NCBI GenBank assembly: GCA_036726225.1
Contig: DAIMCS010000001.1
Span: forward strand, 397,856 to 461,855
Source: Patescibacteria group bacterium
GTDB taxonomy: Bacteria; Patescibacteriota; Doudnabacteria; UBA920
Direction of reading: 5' to 3'
DNA length: 64,000 bases
A program made the position numbers and the translations under genes. The first letter of the stretch is position 1; each line of letters starts with the position of its first letter. This document shows positions 11,388-39,954 of this stretch, piece after piece. Under the pieces are notes generated by a model. The model saw only the letters and a program-made list of their open reading frames with translations. It did no database searches and was not told the DNA's origin.

Positions 11388-12092
11388 ATGAGTCCAAAGA
11401 AAAAAATTAAAATGCCCACGGAGTTTTCCGACCAGCCCAAAGGCTTGGTAATTTGTTATGTTGGCGCGGGCAAGGGAAAGACTACTGCGGCAATGGGGAT
11501 GGCTGTTCGGGCTGCGGGGGACGGCAAAAATGTTTTTATTTTGCAGTTTGTTAAAGCTTCCAACAAAAATTCGGACAAAATTAAAGACGGCGAGTGGCCG
11601 GTTTCCTCGGAGATTAATTTTTTTAATTTTTTTGAAGAGCTGTATCACCCTCCCCTAACCCCTCCCATCAAGGGAGGGGAATCAAAGTTTTCCCTCCCCC
11701 TTGTGGGGAGGGCTAGGGAGGGGGGCATAGGCAGGATTCAGAACGAGCAGGTGGGTTTAGGTTTTGTGGGAATTTTGGGAGACAAAAAAGAAAAAGACAT
11801 ACACATTCGGCAGGCAATAAAAGGCCTTGAACGCGCAAGAGAAATTATCACGAGCGGGGAATACGAACTAGTTATCCTCGATGAAATAATTTCCGCGCTA
11901 GAAGTTGGTATACTGGAAGAGCGGGACATTATTGATCTTATTAAATTAAAAGGGCCGTTACAGCATCTTGTCATTACCGGCCATAATAAATATCCAAAAA
12001 TTTTGAAAGAGTGTGACTTGGTTACAGAAATGAAAATGATTCAACATCCTTACTATAAAGGCATCCTTGCACAGAAGGGCATAGACTACTAA
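11388..12092 (+). CDS. cobO: cob(I)yrinic acid a,c-diamide / corrinoid adenosyltransferase (CobO/BtuR family) carrying an in-frame low-complexity insertion
   Basis: P-loop CYVGAGKGKTTAAMGMAVRAAGDGKNVFILQFVK is diagnostic for CobA/CobO/BtuR; C-terminal ELVILDEI and HLVITGH motifs. Confidence 0.8.
   Translation: MSPKKKIKMPTEFSDQPKGLVICYVGAGKGKTTAAMGMAVRAAGDGKNVFILQFVKASNKNSDKIKDGEWPVSSEINFFNFFEELYHPPLTPPIKGGESKFSLPLVGRAREGGIGRIQNEQVGLGFVGILGDKKEKDIHIRQAIKGLERAREIITSGEYELVILDEIISALEVGILEERDIIDLIKLKGPLQHLVITGHNKYPKILKECDLVTEMKMIQHPYYKGILAQKGIDY
11646..11730. repeat. G/C-rich nested palindromic mini-element inserted in frame inside cobO (CCCCTCCCATCAAGGGAGGGG and CCCTCCCCCTTGTGGGGAGGG)
   Basis: Encodes HPPLTPPIKGGESKFSLPLVGRAREGGIG, absent from CobO homologues; two perfect hairpins. 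Confidence 0.6.
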
Positions 12093-19146: not shown

Positions 19147-19368
19147 ATGGAAAACGATACAAATCAAATACCAGTGCCCCCAATGACCCAGGAAGAAATA
19201 TTGCTTGAGGTTTTGGAAAACAGCCGCAAAACTAAAACTTATATGAAATGGCAGCTTTACATCACAATCGTACTTGTGGTGTTACCTCTTTTAGCTGCAG
19301 TATTTTTAGTGCCAATGGCTATAAGCGGGCTTAGCAGCGCTTACAGCACCGCGGGGCTATTGCAGTAG
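19147..19368 (+). CDS. small membrane hypothetical protein
   Basis: ORF with one TM helix. Confidence 0.35.
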   Translation: MENDTNQIPVPPMTQEEILLEVLENSRKTKTYMKWQLYITIVLVVLPLLAAVFLVPMAISGLSSAYSTAGLLQ

Positions 19369-19430
19369 ACAGCATCAACCCCTCCCTAGCCCTCCCCAAA
19401 TCTTGGGGAGGGAAATTATAAAGAAAAACT

Positions 19431-19778
19431 ATGCAAGATGACCGCTGGCAACAATTAGTCGAAATGGCGCAAAAACATTTTAAAGGTGTAAAACTTTACA
19501 CGGAAGATTTAATAATGGACACGCAGGACGGACCAATTAAGCAGGGGGTTTGTGAAGTTGTGGAATTTGACCATCAAGACGGTAAAAGGTACAAGTTAGT
19601 CCGAGAAAACAGGCCGGTAGTTTTGGAAAAAAAGGAGTTGTATTCGCACAGGGCAGGACAGTCAGCCCAAACGCAGTATAAATTTTCAGATTCAGAATTT
19701 TCTCATAAGTTAAAAGTCTACAAGGAAGTAGATTTCGACGAGTGGGAAGCAATAACTTTGGATAGGTTGGGACTATAG
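19431..19778 (+). CDS. hypothetical protein
   Basis: ORF only. Confidence 0.4.
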   Translation: MQDDRWQQLVEMAQKHFKGVKLYTEDLIMDTQDGPIKQGVCEVVEFDHQDGKRYKLVRENRPVVLEKKELYSHRAGQSAQTQYKFSDSEFSHKLKVYKEVDFDEWEAITLDRLGL

Positions 19779-26123: not shown

Positions 26124-26292
26124 CGCCTGTCCCTTTACTTTTTCCCGGCTAAATGCTATTATTTTATCTACTAATTAAATATTTTCAACCCTTCTGTCCA
26201 ATTTGGTGGTAGGATCTAGGATCGGTTTTTTAACCTCTCCCCTGACCCCTCTCCATGAATTGGAGAGGGGAAATCTATAAGGAAAAACTATC

Positions 26293-26460
26293 ATGGGTGT
26301 ACCAAAAAAACATAAAACCCGTTCGGGGCGTAACCAGCGCAGAAGCCACCATGCTTTATCTGTGAAATCTTTTGCTGTTTGTAAAAATTGCGGGGCTTCA
26401 ACCATGCCTCATTTGCCTTGCAAGAACTGCGGATATTATAAAGGCAGAAAAGTTGTCTAA
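26293..26460 (+). CDS. rpmF: 50S ribosomal protein L32 (bL32); below the 60-aa cutoff of the ORF track
   Basis: MGVPKKHKTRSGRNQRRSHHAL…CKNCG…CKNCGYYKG is the L32 signature with two CxxC pairs. Confidence 0.8.
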   Translation: MGVPKKHKTRSGRNQRRSHHALSVKSFAVCKNCGASTMPHLPCKNCGYYKGRKVV

Positions 26461-30819: not shown

Positions 30820-31238
30820 AATAACTCTTATTTATAGCAAAAAATAGGCACACTTATTGACAAAGTGCCTATTTTTTGCTATTGTTGTATGTTAACTTTT
30901 TAACAATACAATATATGTAAAAGCAAATATTACAGGAATATTTTGCTTTTTTTACGCCCGTAGAATGTTTTTTAAATATCTTCCTGCGGGTTTTTTATTT
31001 GAACAGAATTTTGTAAGTTGAATGTAATTTCCAAAGTTGTGTTCGAATAAGGTAAGCAAAGTCAGAAAAGGAAAAGGAGGAAGAACAGAAGAATGTTCAG
31101 GTCAATTTTTGTTTCAATTTTTGAGACCCTCTTCCCGCCCCTAGAATTGGGGCCAGAGCGGAGGGTTGAACGACAACAAAAACGATGCCGCAGGATTTGT
31201 AATAATCTGTCGGCAAAACTGGAACTGGCAAGGAGAAT

Positions 31239-33088: not shown

Positions 33089-35029
33089 ATGCAAAATAAC
33101 CTTGAAAGTTTAGCCAAGCTCGTCCGATATCATTCTTTAGTTTCCACCACAGCAGCAGGCAGCGGGCATCCGACTTCGTCTTTGTCGGCTGCAGATTTAA
33201 TGACAGTTTTAATGTTTGGCACATCGCAGAATCACGCGGAAGAGACTGCGATCACGGAATCATCCGCTTCCGCTAAAGCTTCGGCGGACAGGCGCGGAGA
33301 CGGAGCTTTTTTCCATTCAGATTTAGACAACCACGAAAACCCCAACAATGACCGGTTAATTTTTAGCAAAGGGCATGCCAGCCCTTTGTTTTATGCTTTG
33401 TACGCGGCGGCCGGAAAAATTACAGAAGATGAGCTTAAAACTTTACGCAAATTTGGAAGCAAGCTGGAAGGCCACCCGACTTTGGAATTTAAATATACCG
33501 AAGTACCGACGGGTTCTTTGGGCCAGGGTTTATCAGTCGGCCTGGGTATGGCGCTTAATGCGCGCTTAGAAAAATCTACTTATAAAACTTTTGTTTTGCT
33601 CGGCGACTCGGAGATGGCCGAAGGCAGTGTGTGGGAAGCCATGGCCGCGGCATCACATTCCAATCTTTCCAATCTCGTAGCAATTTTAGATTGCAACCGG
33701 CTGGGCCAAAGAGGCGAGACTATGTATGGCCACCATACGGAAATTTACGAAGCCCGCGCCAAAGCTTTTGGCTGGGAAACCGTGGTGGTGGATGGACATA
33801 ATATTAGCGAGATCGAGAAAGCTTATAAGTTAATAAGCGAATCAGTTAATAAGCCCTTAATGATTATTGGCAAGACTTTGAAAGGCAAAGGCGTATCGTT
33901 CATAGAAGACAAAGAGGGTAAGCACGGAGTGGCGCTTAAGCCGGATGAGTTGGAAAAAGCTTTGGCAGAATTGGGGACGATTGATAAAACGGTGGGGATG
34001 GTAGCAAAACCAGATAATAACTCCCCCCAACCCCCTCTTATTTTAAGAGGGGGTGCCGAAGGCGGGGGAGTTAAATTTACAGACTACCCTAAAGACAAAC
34101 CGGTTTCCACGCGCAAGGCTTATGGCAATATTTTGCCTAGTATAATTGAAAGTTTTACCAATGCCGTGGTGCTGGATGCGGAAGTCAGCAACTCGACTTT
34201 TGCCGAAACTGTGAAAAAAACGCATCCGGAAAAGTTTTTTGAAATGTACATTGCCGAACAAAATATGGTTGGCGCGGCTTTGGGTTTTTCGCGCCGGGGC
34301 AAAATTCCTTTTGTTTCCACTTTTGCCGCGTTTTTGTCCCGCGCTTTTGACCAAATCCGCATGTCCCAGTACGCCAAAGCCAACATTAAGTTTGTCGGCT
34401 CGCACGCAGGCGTTAGCATTGGGGAAGACGGTAGCAGCCAAATGGGTTTGGAAGAAATTGCAATATTTAGAACTTTGCTGGATTCGGTTGTGCTGTATCC
34501 TTCGGACGCAATTTCAGCAGAAAAATTAGTCCACGAGGCGGCCAAGCACCAGGGTAATGTTTATATACAAACAACACGCAAAGATACAGCTATTTTATAT
34601 ACACCTACCGATGAATTTAAAATTGGCGGCTCGCGCGTATTAAAATCATCTTCGACCGATAAAGCTACAGTAGTCGCCGCTGGCGTAACTTTGCACGAAG
34701 CAATGGCTGCTTACGAAGAATTGCAAAAAGAAAATATTAACATCCGGGTAATTGACCTTTATTCTATTAAACCTCTCGATGTTGCCACGCTGCAAAAGGC
34801 TGCAACTGAAACTAAACACCTAATTACAGTCGAAGACCATTTTGTGGAAGGGGGAATTGGCGAAGCGGTTTCGTTTGCGCTCTCTGCTCTGACAGAACCT
34901 AATTTGCATTTTAGTAATTTAGCGGTAAGAAAAATGCCAAAAAGCGGCAAGCCCGAAGAACTTTTGGCATTTGAGGAAATTGATAAAAAGGCTATAATTA
35001 GGGCAGTAAAGCAGATGCTGAATAAGTAA
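33089..35029 (+). CDS. tkt: transketolase, full-length (N- and C-halves fused) with an inserted linker
   Basis: GSGHPTSSLSAADLMTVL, DRLIFSKGHASP, C-half core, EDGSSQMG motif. Confidence 0.9.
   Translation: MQNNLESLAKLVRYHSLVSTTAAGSGHPTSSLSAADLMTVLMFGTSQNHAEETAITESSASAKASADRRGDGAFFHSDLDNHENPNNDRLIFSKGHASPLFYALYAAAGKITEDELKTLRKFGSKLEGHPTLEFKYTEVPTGSLGQGLSVGLGMALNARLEKSTYKTFVLLGDSEMAEGSVWEAMAAASHSNLSNLVAILDCNRLGQRGETMYGHHTEIYEARAKAFGWETVVVDGHNISEIEKAYKLISESVNKPLMIIGKTLKGKGVSFIEDKEGKHGVALKPDELEKALAELGTIDKTVGMVAKPDNNSPQPPLILRGGAEGGGVKFTDYPKDKPVSTRKAYGNILPSIIESFTNAVVLDAEVSNSTFAETVKKTHPEKFFEMYIAEQNMVGAALGFSRRGKIPFVSTFAAFLSRAFDQIRMSQYAKANIKFVGSHAGVSIGEDGSSQMGLEEIAIFRTLLDSVVLYPSDAISAEKLVHEAAKHQGNVYIQTTRKDTAILYTPTDEFKIGGSRVLKSSSTDKATVVAAGVTLHEAMAAYEELQKENINIRVIDLYSIKPLDVATLQKAATETKHLITVEDHFVEGGIGEAVSFALSALTEPNLHFSNLAVRKMPKSGKPEELLAFEEIDKKAIIRAVKQMLNK
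34018..34073. repeat. G/C-rich palindromic mini-element in frame inside tkt (AACTCCCCCC…CCCCCTCTTATTTTAAGAGGGGG…GGGGGAGTT)
   Basis: Encodes NNSPQPPLILRGGAEGGGV in the inter-domain linker; nested hairpins. Confidence 0.55.
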
Positions 35030-39861: not shown

Positions 39862-39896
39862 AAGAGGATTCCCCTCTGTCAGAGGGGAATCCTCTT
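39862..39896 (+). terminator. terminator after tal (AAGAGGATTCCCCTCTGTCAGAGGGGAATCCTCTT)
   Basis: 15-bp perfect stem; member of the CCCCTC…GAGGGG hairpin family. Confidence 0.75.
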
Positions 39897-39954
39897 AACA
39901 CTCTAAATAAAAAACAACCCCGATATTAATCGCGGTTGTTTTTTATTTGTAAAT

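What the first reader, a model, noticed from the sequence alone, without database searches (positions are those of the whole stretch)
11646..11730. G/C-rich palindromic mini-elements, apparently inserted in frame into essential genes
A family of hairpins built on CCCCTC(C)…G(G)AGGGG occurs in intergenic spots (19376-19412, 26226-26270, 31126-31167, terminator 39862-39896). Two copies lie inside coding sequence without breaking the frame. The cobO-like gene gains HPPLTPPIKGGESKFSLPLVGRAREGGIG between conserved adenosyltransferase blocks. tkt gains NNSPQPPLILRGGAEGGGV exactly in the linker between its N- and C-terminal halves (34018-34073). This is the behaviour described for Rickettsia palindromic elements (RPEs), which insert in frame into ORFs and are tolerated in surface loops. 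I am not aware of it being described for this kind of genome.
Basis: partly seen in the sequence, partly recalled or inferred. Interest (0 to 1): 0.7.

Follow-up and report, generated by a model that had tools for sequence, protein, structure and literature searches.

The report
Triplex-motif mini-repeats inserted inside genes
The G/C-rich hairpins are copies of a repeat found across bacteria (E. coli BoxC/PIT, the "intrastrand triplex motif"); here some sit in frame inside conserved enzymes, and related DNA shows the repeat regularly brackets a small nuclease gene of unknown function (DUF559), which may be what spreads it.

Summary
Four of the six listed hairpins are real members of one family: five units against about 0.13 expected by chance. 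Each unit is more than a hairpin. It has a C-rich tract, a 3-nt spacer (TAA/TAG/TGA/CAA), a C-rich arm, a loop and a G-rich arm. The tract is the mirror image of the arm (permutation test 0/5000). This is the published BoxC/PIT/TM intrastrand-triplex motif (Holder 2015), and it occurs across many bacterial phyla.

The cobO-like gene carries an inverted pair of units as a +26-aa in-frame segment. About 40 orthologous loci lack it, and it is modelled as a disordered loop. Other lineages carry different units at the same loop. The tkt copy sits in a linker that is hypervariable in all relatives and is not extra length. In-frame copies also occur in fpg, uvrB, dus, comEC and a membrane protein in other genomes.

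New lead: DUF559 (Vsr-like nuclease) genes are bracketed by inverted units in CPR, Proteobacteria, Planctomycetota and E. coli ycjD. The same cassette sits at different sites in two syntenic genomes. This suggests a system like REPIN/RAYT. No DUF559 gene lies in this window, and mobility is inferred, not shown. The sites at 31126 and 39862 are ordinary hairpins.

The parts
11388..12092 (+). cobO-like gene (CobA_CobO_BtuR family, 234 aa) that hosts the insert
   Evidence: Pfam PF02572, E 3.9e-49, matched in two stretches either side of the insert. Most homologues are 200-210 aa.
11648..11679 (+). Triplex-motif (TM) unit 1, in frame: CCCTCCCC taa CCCCTCCC atcaa GGGAGGGG (tract, spacer, arm, loop, arm); encodes PPLTPPIKGG
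   Evidence: (mirror 8/8).
11680..11691 (.). 12-nt spacer between the two inverted units (AATCAAAGTTTT)
11692..11723 (-). TM unit 2, inverted. On the minus strand it reads CCCCTCCC tag CCCTCCCC acaag GGGGAGGG, the same blocks as the intergenic copy at 19379.
   Evidence: (mirror 8/8). The pair is predicted to fold into one long hairpin.
19379..19412 (+). Intergenic TM unit: CCCCTCCC tag CCCTCCCCAA atc TTGGGGAGGG. It lies between a stop codon (19366-19368) and the next start (19431).
19413..19430 (+). Tail shared with the 26234 copy (AAAT TATAAAGAAAAACTAT), running up to the ATG at 19431
   Evidence: the 16-mer TATAARGAAAAACTAT occurs only at these two sites (0.21 expected).
26234..26270 (+). 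Intergenic TM unit, variant: CCTCTCCCC tga CCCCTCTCCA tgaat TGGAGAGGGG
   Evidence: (mirror 8/8, both T positions mirrored).
26271..26292 (+). Shared tail (AAATCTATAAGGAAAAACTATC), directly before the ATG at 26293 of an L32-like gene (MGVPKKHKTRSGRNQR)
   Evidence: The gene identity is read from the sequence and was not tested.
33089..35029 (+). Transketolase gene that hosts a unit in its inter-domain linker
   Evidence: Pfam Transketolase_N 79-297 and Transket_pyr 338-499.
34021..34072 (+). TM unit in tkt with an extra mini-hairpin: CTCCCCCC aa CCCCCTCTTA ttt TAAGAGGGGG t GCCGAAGGC GGGGGAGTT. The outer tract pairs with the last block. The minus strand reads C(TTCG)G.
   Evidence: The same hairpin CCCCCTCTTA..TAAGAGGGGG is inserted in cobO of another genome (L030) and occurs in L014.
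31126..31167 (.).
39862..39896 (.). Perfect 16-bp hairpin right after a stop codon, not a tripartite unit. A T-run terminator-like hairpin follows at about 39905-39940.
   Evidence: (mirror 4/8).

Best explanation
[quoted passage not shown] One unit is about 33-37 nt. On the C-rich strand it reads: pyrimidine tract, a spacer of about 3 nt (TAA/TAG/TGA/CAA or CGG), pyrimidine arm, a 3-5 nt loop, purine arm. The arm and the purine block form a hairpin. The outer tract is the mirror image of the arm, so it can lie in the hairpin's major groove. On the C-rich strand this gives C+.G-C and T.A-T triples. On the G-rich strand it gives G.G-C, A.A-T and T.A-T triples.

**What they do here.** Units occur singly or as inverted pairs. 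In this genome and its relatives they have entered, or been overwritten at, permissive loops and linkers of conserved proteins. Only copies whose length is a multiple of three and that lack a stop in the used frame survive there. They are read as short P/S/L/T..G/R/E peptides in disordered surface loops.

**How they most likely spread.** The most likely source of spread is a cassette of about 0.45 kb. In it a DUF559 (Vsr-like PD-(D/E)XK) nuclease gene is bracketed by two inverted units. Solitary and paired units would then be its non-autonomous relatives, as REP/REPIN elements are to RAYT genes.

**Shown**
- the unit architecture and its covariation
- membership of the published motif class
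- the lineage-specific in-frame insert in cobO
- the link between DUF559 genes and TM units
- different positions of the cassette on a syntenic backbone

**Inferred**
- that the nuclease mobilises the units
- that a triplex forms in vivo
- that the inserts are translated

**Approximate sub-confidences:** motif-class membership 0.9; cobO insert being lineage-specific 0.9; elements being mobile or copied between sites 0.7; DUF559 being the mobilising enzyme 0.35-0.4.
For: **Architecture and covariation**
- About 39 units were found in 699 kb of related DNA plus the window.
- In 38 units (28 distinct), the mirror score was 273/304 against 237.6 +/- 4.1 for permuted pairs (0 of 5000 permutations reached it).
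- A direct-repeat model was not significant (242 against 236.4; 571 of 5000).
- Where the arm has T, the tract has T 32 times, A 12, G 3 and C 3. Where the arm has C, the tract has C in 164 of 170 positions.

**Match to the published class**
- Three-block layout, second loop TTA or CCG, inverted pairs.
- Purine-motif triplex shown in vitro by CD and NMR (PMC4666352).
- A strict TM_ECO pattern match is the in-frame fpg insert of L008, and another lies next to E. coli ycjD.

**Pan-bacterial spread**
- Nearly every hit is followed by a loop and a G-rich arm.

**Insertion**
- cobO is +26 aa relative to about 40 loci with the 38-aa form.
- Different units sit at the same loop in L006, L019, L030 and in proteins P0002/3/12/14/29/39/53/64/69/82/88.
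- fpg carries 36-nt units of two types at one codon position in L008 and L046; the window's fpg has none.
- Pfam domains span the inserts in uvrB, dus and comEC.
- A membrane protein carries inserts at one loop in L008, L014, L017 and L019.
- The cobO insert is modelled as coil with pLDDT below 50.

**DUF559 link**
- All 6 DUF559 genes in the cobO-selected loci, which were not chosen for the motif, abut units. So do 8 genes in the motif-selected loci.
- Nine of the 14 show the canonical order: unit with its G-tract facing the ATG, then the gene, then the stop codon followed by tract-arm-loop-arm.
- By a regular-expression count, 46 of the 120 best homologues have C-terminal tails encoded by units; others end in truncated unit-like tails such as STSP or TTPHSPPS.
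- E. coli K-12 ycjD runs into a degenerate unit, and a full TM_ECO lies about 190 nt downstream.
- L073 and L077 carry the same cassette at different intergenic positions of a syntenic region.
Against: - No DUF559 gene lies in the 64-kb window. The rest of the genome could not be read.
- No target-site duplication or clean empty site was seen. The nearest orthologues are only 70-80% identical, so insertion boundaries are approximate.
- The elements are identical in five assemblies of this species, so there is no polymorphism to show recent movement.
- The E. coli study found no link to mobile elements, no promoter or terminator activity, and no triplex in vivo by DMS footprinting.
- The DUF559 association could instead mean that the units regulate or terminate that gene, or that they land preferentially beside it.
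- Paired units in ORFs have the order right end then left end, with tracts outward. This is not what a simple internal deletion of the cassette would leave.
- Recurrence at the same loop could reflect one old insertion followed by gene conversion between copies, rather than repeated insertion.
Confidence: 0.6

Rival explanations
1. The elements are Rickettsia-type palindromic elements or classical MITEs. That is, non-autonomous deletion derivatives of an IS element, moved by a DDE transposase, with terminal inverted repeats and target-site duplications.
For: They are palindromic and dispersed, and they insert in frame into unrelated housekeeping genes, as RPEs do (RPE description in PMC10969869).
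Against: - Units are about 35 nt, whereas RPEs are about 150 bp.
- No target-site duplication is visible at the cobO or fpg sites.
- The only gene found repeatedly next to them is DUF559, not a transposase.
- Identical 19-mers occur across many phyla.
- The mirror-tract architecture is not a feature of MITE ends.
Confidence: 0.05
2. The elements are REP/REPIN elements, mobilised by a RAYT (IS200/IS605-like HUH tyrosine transposase) encoded elsewhere in the genome.
For: - Size of about 35 nt, single units and inverted doublets, and a small gene bracketed by inverted units all parallel the REPIN/RAYT layout (REPIN description in the abstract of PMC3337134).
- All four single units in the window share one orientation with the genes, which would fit single-strand transposition.
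Against: - The bracketed gene is DUF559 (PF04480), a PD-(D/E)XK fold and not a Y1 transposase.
- Clustering of ORFs flanking 128 units gave no recurrent neighbour other than DUF559 and common housekeeping families.
- REPs are by definition extragenic, while about a third of the sites here are inside genes.
- I did not run a dedicated Y1_Tnp search.
Confidence: 0.1
3. The units are not mobile. They arise or persist locally because their DNA or RNA structure is selected or mutationally favoured. Variants at one site are homogenised by gene conversion or slippage. Permissive protein loops simply tolerate them.
For: - The same loop carries different variants in different lineages.
- The unit's sequence space is tiny (C runs with one or two T), so convergence on identical 19-mers is conceivable.
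- E. coli work links the units to local instability, deletion and mutation rather than to transposition.
- There is no polymorphism among five assemblies.
Against: - A 36-nt three-block structure appearing de novo inside fpg, cobO, uvrB, dus and comEC is very unlikely without copying from a template.
- The same hairpin (CCCCCTCTTA..TAAGAGGGGG) is found in tkt here and in cobO of another genome.
- The whole DUF559 cassette changes position between syntenic genomes.
Confidence: 0.2
4. The units are cis-acting expression signals (5'-UTR or translation-initiation modules, or transcript-end stabilisers), and the coding copies are by-products.
For: - Intergenic copies sit 10-23 nt upstream of start codons and in the same direction as the gene (window 19379 and 26234; L023, L073, L077, L084).
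- The two window copies share a 16-nt tail that ends at the ATG.
- The G-rich arm resembles a Shine-Dalgarno sequence.
- In cassettes the G-tract lies 2 nt before the DUF559 ATG.
Against: - PIT elements showed no promoter or terminator activity in E. coli and no consistent distance to ORFs.
- No sigma-70-like promoter was found at 19200-19500.
- Intergenic spaces in these genomes are so short that any intergenic element lies near a start codon.
- This reading does not explain the in-frame copies. It is not exclusive of the main explanation.
Confidence: 0.15
5. The extra peptide segments are ancestral low-complexity linkers, not insertions.
For: The tkt linker varies in every relative and the window's length is typical. 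Several cobO relatives also have long loops.
Against: - The 38-aa form of the cobO stretch is found in about 40 loci spread over the whole identity range of 42-77%.
- The long forms are scattered among lineages and are built from recognisable repeat units at the DNA level.
Confidence: 0.03

Closest known systems
[quoted passage not shown]
   Same: - Three blocks of 8-9 nt (C-rich, G-rich, G-rich on one strand).
- First loop of 3-6 nt.
- Second loop TTA or CCG, which are TAA and CGG on the strand read here.
- Third block obeys triplex pairing rules.
- Length of 34-37 nt.
- Single units and inverted pairs.
- Present in many bacteria.
- No assigned function.
   Different: - The window's blocks (CCCTCCCC, CCTCTCCCC, CTCCCCC) do not fit the strict TM_ECO pattern CCCTCNCCC.
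- In E. coli the units are reported as always intergenic and unlinked to mobile elements. Here three of five units are inside genes, in frame.
- A DUF559 gene association is seen, and the paper does not mention it ('ycjD' and 'endonuclease' occur 0 times).
Rickettsia palindromic elements (RPEs; Ogata et al. 2000 and 2002, as summarised in PMC10969869)
   Same: Palindromic repeats inserted in frame into unrelated housekeeping genes of a small-genome bacterium. They are tolerated as extra peptide segments compatible with the protein fold.
   Different: - RPEs are about 150 bp, fall into about ten families that each encode a conserved peptide, and are restricted to Rickettsia.
- The units here are about 35 nt, have a triplex-type third block, and occur across phyla.
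- No sequence relationship to RPEs was tested.
REP / REPIN elements with RAYT transposases (Bertels and Rainey; PMC3337134)
   Same: - Palindromic units of about 35 nt.
- Singlets and inverted doublets.
- Far more units than genes.
- A small enzyme gene bracketed by inverted units.
   Different: - The bracketed gene is a DUF559 / Vsr-like PD-(D/E)XK nuclease, not an HUH tyrosine transposase.
- The units carry a mirror tract.
- The units occur inside coding sequence.
Vsr (very short patch repair endonuclease) and the DUF559 family (PF04480; PDB 3HRL; E. coli YcjD)
   Same: The cassette protein matches PF04480 with E 1e-30 to 1e-41, and matches 3HRL. Some sources name relatives 'very-short-patch-repair endonuclease'.
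   Different: No function is known for DUF559. A role in moving or processing TM units is my inference and is not described in the papers I could search.

Membership tests
G/C-rich intrastrand triplex motif (BoxC/PIT/TM class) | Three consecutive blocks: C-rich, G-rich complement, and a second G-rich block (or the complement of this layout), each 6-15 nt | tested here: met
   Five units in the window fit this layout. Blocks are 7-10 nt.
G/C-rich intrastrand triplex motif (BoxC/PIT/TM class) | The third block obeys triplex pairing with the hairpin's purine strand, i.e. it is the mirror of the pyrimidine arm | tested here: met
   Mirror 8/8 in four window units and 7/8 in tkt. Family-wide permutation test 0/5000. 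A or T at arm-T positions in 44 of 50 cases.
G/C-rich intrastrand triplex motif (BoxC/PIT/TM class) | Short loops: first 3-6 nt, second about 3 nt (TTA or CCG in E. coli) | tested here: met
   Spacers are TAA, TAG, TGA and CAA in the window, and CGG in L008. Loops are 3-5 nt.
G/C-rich intrastrand triplex motif (BoxC/PIT/TM class) | Strict TM_ECO pattern CCCTCNCCC N3-6 GGGNGAGGG N3 GGGNGAGGG | tested here: not met
   0 matches in the window. Matches in L008 (in-frame fpg insert), L130 and E. coli next to ycjD. The window's copies are variants of the wider class.
G/C-rich intrastrand triplex motif (BoxC/PIT/TM class) | Folds into a triplex as an isolated strand | not testable with these tools
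   Shown by CD and NMR for the E. coli sequence only, and not seen in vivo.
G/C-rich intrastrand triplex motif (BoxC/PIT/TM class) | Intergenic location (as reported for E. coli K-12) | tested here: not met
   Three of five window units are inside ORFs. This is a reported property in E. coli rather than a definition of the class.
Rickettsia palindromic elements | Length of about 100-150 bp, encoding a family-specific conserved peptide | tested here: not met
   Units are 32-37 nt. The cobO pair is 76 nt. RPE size from PMC10969869.
Rickettsia palindromic elements | In-frame insertion into unrelated protein-coding genes | tested here: met
   cobO and tkt here; fpg, uvrB, dus, comEC and a membrane protein elsewhere.
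Rickettsia palindromic elements | Sequence similarity to RPE-1 to RPE-10; restriction to Rickettsia | not tested
   No RPE sequences were compared. The host is a Patescibacteria/Doudnabacteria-like genome, judged by the names that sources give to homologues.
REP/REPIN-RAYT | Imperfect palindromes of about 20-40 nt, occurring as singlets and inverted doublets | tested here: met
REP/REPIN-RAYT | Associated HUH Y1 transposase (RAYT) gene flanked by the repeats | tested here: not met
   The flanked gene is DUF559, PF04480. No other recurrent neighbour was found in 128 motif contexts. No dedicated Y1_Tnp search was run.
MITE | Terminal inverted repeats plus target-site duplication | tested here: inconclusive
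   No duplication is visible at the cobO or fpg junctions, but the orthologues compared are only 60-80% identical.
DUF559 (PF04480), for the cassette gene found in related loci and not in the window | Match to the Pfam model above its gathering score | tested here: met
   103-140 bits against a cut-off of 20.6. PDB 3HRL, E 1.3e-18. NCBIfam PRK09767 matched below its cut-off.

The most novel reading that the evidence does not exclude
TM/BoxC/PIT units are the ends, and the non-autonomous derivatives, of a pan-bacterial family of tiny selfish cassettes of about 0.45 kb. The only gene in each cassette is a DUF559 Vsr-like nuclease that recognises the folded (hairpin or triplex) ends. This would be a counterpart of the REPIN/RAYT system built on a PD-(D/E)XK nuclease. 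It would explain both a repeat family that has lacked a function since the 1990s and a widespread domain of unknown function. In small genomes such as this one, it would be a regular source of new peptide loops in essential proteins.
Probability: 0.35. Interest if true: 0.85.

Novelty: new variant of a known kind. Interest (0 to 1): 0.65.

Why it matters
BoxC/PIT/TM units have been known since the 1990s. A triplex has been shown in vitro, but the units have no function, no source and no way of spreading (PMC4666352). DUF559 is a common bacterial domain with a solved structure and no known role.

Finding the two together makes both questions testable with simple experiments: YcjD protein on TM oligonucleotides, and TM gain or loss in ycjD mutants. 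The units bracket the gene in a fixed orientation in distant phyla, including E. coli K-12.

Separately, the in-frame copies show that DNA able to form these structures is tolerated inside conserved enzymes (cobO, tkt, fpg, uvrB, dus, comEC) and recurs at the same loops. This matters in three ways:
- for annotation, because P/S/L..G/R/E loops in such proteins are repeat DNA and not lineage-specific function;
- for how small genomes acquire new peptide segments;
- for reading genome instability at these sites.

Tried and rejected
- **Rfam.** At gathering thresholds only two tRNAs match in the window. No described RNA family covers the units.
- **Direct-repeat model** for the upstream tract. Not better than permuted pairs.
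- **G-quadruplex or i-motif reading.** It fits only CCCTCCCC-type units, not CTCCCCC or CCTCCTC types, which lack four runs. Judged from the sequences.
- **Anti-Shine-Dalgarno mimicry.** The resemblance of ATCACCCTCCCCTAA to the 16S 3' end was noted, but it is not consistent across copies.
- **Strain polymorphism.** The contigs found from five separate samples are 99.9-100% identical to the window and show no indel at the elements they cover.
- **Other recurrent neighbour genes** around 128 motif copies. Only ABC-type/PAS-like housekeeping families and DUF559 were found.
- **Stop-free-frame test for coding status.** In high-GC genomes it is unreliable because long spurious frames appear. Coding status was therefore claimed only where Pfam domains span the unit.
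- **Promoter scan** at 19200-19500: none found.
- **PADLOC.** No real defence-system match for DUF559.
- **Literature.** Searches for DUF559, for Vsr-like plus palindromic elements, and for CPR plus palindromic elements returned nothing linking these. One search on BoxC was swamped by unrelated 'boxcar' hits.
- **Paired units as internal-deletion derivatives of the cassette.** Their order (tracts outward) is the reverse of what that would give, so this idea was dropped and the origin of pairs is left open.
Full report
**1. What is in the window.**

The window has 43% GC, and nearly all its genes are on the plus strand. Homologues of its proteins are named Candidatus Doudnabacteria or Patescibacteria by their sources.

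The segment at 11646-11730 reads:

CCCTCCCC taa CCCCTCCC atcaa GGGAGGGG, then aatcaaagtttt, then CCCTCCCC cttgt GGGGAGGG cta GGGAGGGG.

It lies inside ORF 11388-12092. That ORF matches the CobA_CobO_BtuR family on both sides of the segment.

Similar sequences lie at three other sites:
- 19379-19412 (intergenic)
- 26234-26270 (intergenic)
- 34021-34072, inside tkt, between Transketolase_N and Transket_pyr

The simple pattern CCCCTC..GAGGGG occurs 4 times against 0.02 expected.

The hairpins at 31126 and 39862 have a different build. I do not count them as members.

**2. The unit is tripartite, not just a hairpin.**

I collected hairpins with a pyrimidine arm from the window plus 80 related cobO loci, 699 kb in all. 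This gave about 39 units with one architecture:
- a short lead (often ATCA or TAA)
- a C-rich tract
- a 2-5 nt spacer (mostly 3 nt: TAA, TAG, TGA, CAA or CGG)
- a C-rich arm
- a 3-5 nt loop
- a G-rich arm

The tract is the mirror image of the arm. This holds even where a direct repeat would differ, for example:
- CCCCCTC[caa]CTCCCCC
- CCCCTCC[tga]CCTCCCC
- CCCCCTCTCCC[tttat]CCCTCTCCCCC

Results for 38 units (28 distinct) were as follows.

| Model | Observed score | Permuted tract/arm pairs | Permutations reaching observed |
|---|---|---|---|
| Mirror | 273 of 304 | 237.6 +/- 4.1 | 0 of 5000 |
| Direct repeat | 242 | 236.4 +/- 4.2 | 571 of 5000 |

At arm-T positions the tract carries T (32) or A (12) in 44 of 50 cases. 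At arm-C positions it carries C in 164 of 170.

A tract that is the parallel complement of the purine arm is the design of a single-strand triple helix. The T/A ambiguity fits the purine motif on the G-rich strand, where both A.A-T and T.A-T triples are allowed.

With a finder built on these rules the window holds 5 units. First-order Markov shuffles give about 0.13 per window.

**3. This motif is already published.**

A literature search found Holder et al. 2015 (PMC4666352). The paper reports the following.
- The motif was first noted as BoxC in E. coli. It was then described as PIT (potential intrastrand triplex) elements, and later as TM_ECO.
- The TM_ECO pattern is CCCTCNCCC N3-6 GGGNGAGGG N3 GGGNGAGGG, with second loop TTA (type A) or CCG (type B).
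- There are 3610 copies in 262 proteobacterial genomes, and many G/C-rich motifs in cyanobacteria.
- The isolated G-strand forms a purine-motif triplex by CD and NMR.
- No triplex is detected in vivo.
- PIT elements show no promoter or terminator activity.
- In E. coli K-12 the 23 copies are "always located intergenically". Five sites are inverted A+B pairs.
- No link to mobile elements was found.
- TM loci are unusually variable between strains.

My spacers (TAA, CGG) are the complements of their loops.

The window's blocks do not fit the strict TM_ECO pattern. The in-frame fpg insert of L008 and a copy beside E. coli ycjD do fit it. So the window's elements are variants within a known class. 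The triplex reading that I derived independently is not new.

**4. The class is pan-bacterial.**

My rough estimate of chance matches is about ten.

Hits came from:
- Alpha-, Beta-, Gamma- and Deltaproteobacteria
- Bacteroidota
- Planctomycetota
- Chloroflexota
- Cyanobacteria and Melainabacteria
- Acidobacteriota
- Omnitrophota
- Chlamydiae
- Several CPR groups

Their GC content ranges from 32% to 73%.

Nearly every hit is followed by a loop and a G-rich arm. GGGGAGGG is exact in 52 of 128. The rest are variants such as GGGAGAGGG, often with longer stems.

**5. Are the coding copies insertions?**

*cobO: yes.*
- In the stretch from EWP to GFVGILGD, about 40 loci spanning 42-77% identity have 38 residues (NFFD-NVSY-xSx-IG). 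The window has 64.
- The extra DNA is exactly the inverted pair of units plus a short FFEELY extension.
- An AlphaFold model built on alignment A1 has mean pLDDT 70. It places residues about 87-116 in coil, with pLDDT below 50 for residues 92-111, between helix 74-86 and strand 117-124. This fits a tolerated surface loop.
- A minority of other lineages carry different units at the same loop. Examples are L006, L019 and L030, and proteins with HPSLTLPLKGRG, HPxPxPAAGHLLPEGEG or NLSRPFGAPSPSFGEG. L034 and L052 carry an unrelated hairpin family there.

*tkt: less clear.*
- Across 120 relatives the linker stretch ranges from 58 to 93 residues and is filled with many kinds of repeat-like peptides.
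- The window's 65 residues is typical.
- The unit occupies a segment that turns over in every lineage, rather than adding length.
- Three relatives (P0162, P0177, P0126) have 20-30 extra residues of G/C-rich type at the same place.

*Other genes in other genomes.*

| Gene | Locus and organism | Observation |
|---|---|---|
| fpg | L008 (type B), L046 (type A) | 36-nt unit at the same codon position; the window's own fpg has none |
| uvrB | L101, Magasanikbacteria | Pfam domains span the insert |
| dus | L194, Moranbacteria | two copies; Pfam domain spans them |
| comEC (Lactamase_B domain) | L147, Gallionellaceae (not CPR) | Pfam domain spans the insert |
| membrane protein next to cobO | L008, L014, L017, L019 | inserts at one loop; about 20 orthologues lack them |

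By my count from the list, roughly a third of unit sites in the CPR loci are inside ORFs.

All coding copies keep the frame. Copies that break a gene would not have been recognised by my method.

**6. The DUF559 link (new lead).**

I clustered ORFs around 128 motif copies. One small protein family ended right at the units. It is DUF559 (PF04480, E 1e-30 to 1e-41). Its closest solved structure is 3HRL, "endonuclease-like protein". NCBIfam calls it only "DUF559 domain-containing protein". There is no real PADLOC match.

An HMM search of all fetched DNA found 14 such genes. Six are in the cobO-selected loci, which were not chosen for the motif (L014, L017, L045, L073, L077, L084). Practically all 14 have pyrimidine/purine hairpins within about 100 nt on one or both sides.

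Nine of the 14 show the same oriented layout:

arm-loop-arm-Gtract, then ATG ... gene ... stop, then Ctract-arm-loop-arm

In L073 and L077 the G-tract AGGGGAGG lies 2 nt before the ATG. The downstream unit follows the stop codon in L073. In L077 it is read through as the tail LTPSNSPSRGGEPTV, whose TGA overlaps the cobO ATG.

L014 has multi-hairpin ends of about 75 nt, with outer inverted repeats CCGCGGAGC/GCTCCGCGG.

Among the 120 best database homologues of the CPR protein, a regular expression flags 46 with tails encoded by units. Examples are STSPxPSLRRRGKE and TTPHSPPSQGGDE. Many more end in truncated versions of these tails. A few start with read-through of the upstream unit.

In E. coli K-12, the last codons of ycjD (annotated as DUF559) run into a degenerate unit. 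A full type-A TM_ECO lies about 190 nt downstream, after a duplicated fragment of the ycjD 3' end.

L073 and L077 share a syntenic backbone but carry the cassette at different places. L073 has it between the ribonucleotide reductase gene and a HAD-like gene. L077 has it directly upstream of cobO. The L073 site upstream of cobO is empty.

I found no paper connecting DUF559 with these repeats. The searchable library is incomplete.

**7. How it most likely works.**

*Shown*
- The unit architecture and its covariation.
- Its identity with a published motif class.
- The lineage-specific in-frame insert in cobO, and comparable inserts elsewhere.
- The oriented DUF559-unit cassette in distant phyla.
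- Positional change of that cassette.

*Inferred*
- The units are copied between sites.
- The DUF559 nuclease recognises the folded ends and starts that copying. It could do so by nicking followed by repair-templated copying, or through a single-strand intermediate. The analogy is with REPIN/RAYT.
- Only copies in permissive loops, with length divisible by three and read in a stop-free frame, persist in genes.

*Points that do not fit neatly*
- Paired units in genes have tracts outward, while cassette ends have tracts inward.
- No DUF559 gene lies in this window.
- No target duplication or recent polymorphism was seen.
- Recurrence at the same loop could be repeated insertion into the few permissive sites. 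It could also be an old insertion kept similar to other genomic copies by conversion. I cannot tell which.

**8. Verdict.**

The RPE analogy is right as a description of behaviour, but wrong as a claim of family membership. The claim that the element type is undescribed is also wrong.

The element class is known. Two things appear new relative to the papers I could read:
- its regular presence in frame inside conserved genes, reported here mainly for CPR genomes and once outside them;
- its tight, oriented association with DUF559 genes.

The second makes a long-standing question testable.

Noticed in passing
window 19413-19430 and 26271-26292: The two intergenic units share a further tail (AAAT[C]TATAA[A/G]GAAAAACTAT) that ends at the start codon of the next gene. 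One is an unknown 115-aa protein and the other is an L32-like gene. The 16-mer occurs nowhere else in the window. This suggests a longer element of about 58 nt that supplies the translation-initiation region.
   Followed up: partly
L052 about 617-640 and L034 about 469-492 (cobO loop): A different hairpin family, GATTCCCGC ttgc GCGGGAATGAC (peptide SRLRGND), is inserted in frame at the same cobO loop that holds the TM units in other lineages.
   Followed up: no
window 33950-34100 and tkt homologues P0121-P0240: The tkt inter-domain linker of CPR relatives is filled with many kinds of short repeat-like peptides (VESEKLKVESE, SENRRIGESE, SNFQFPISNQF, NPKSEIRNPKQIPNPN). It looks like a general landing or turnover zone for repeat DNA. 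The DNA of these relatives was not examined.
   Followed up: no
L008 7918-9781, L013 7459-7567, L014 2391-3928, L017 2417-5373: A second, more complex element type combines a Py/Pu hairpin (CTCCTCCTT..AAGGAGGAG or CCCCTCCT..AGGAGGGG) with a mini-hairpin C(TTCG)G / GCGAAGC and a CCGCGG core (GCTCCGCGGAGC). It forms the ends of the L014 and L017 DUF559 cassettes, and it is inserted in frame as right-end plus left-end doublets in a membrane protein.
   Followed up: partly
L090, L091, L100, L109, L133, L137, L142, L150, L151, L154 and others (Alphaproteobacteria): A recurrent variant has the stem CCCTCCCCCGC..GCGGGAGAGGG with a conserved C.A mismatch. The extra A in the purine arm is unmatched by both the arm and the tract. 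Its conservation across Azospirillum, Bradyrhizobium and relatives is unexplained.
   Followed up: no
L206 (E. coli K-12 NC_000913.3 about 1351210-1351410): Downstream of ycjD there is a duplicated fragment of the ycjD 3' end (GGAGACGGTGCTGGAGAATATTC...CTGAACCG), followed by a decayed unit and then an intact TM_ECO. It looks like a scar of rearrangement at the cassette end.
   Followed up: no
L045 416-857: The DUF559 gene here is split into two overlapping frames, so it is probably a frameshifted pseudogene. It is still flanked by hairpin units.
   Followed up: no
window 39862-39940: A perfect 16-bp hairpin (AAGAGGATTCCCCTCT gtc AGAGGGGAATCCTCTT) starts one base after a stop codon. It is followed about 10 nt later by a separate A-run / stem / T-run hairpin that looks like a bidirectional terminator. 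The function of the first hairpin is unknown.
   Followed up: no
window, all units; CPR loci: Single units in or next to genes almost always have the C-rich strand as the sense strand: 4 of 4 singles in the window, and about 9 of 10 in-gene singles elsewhere. Genes in the window also nearly all run with the positive GC skew, so bias from transcription and bias from replication cannot be told apart.
   Followed up: partly
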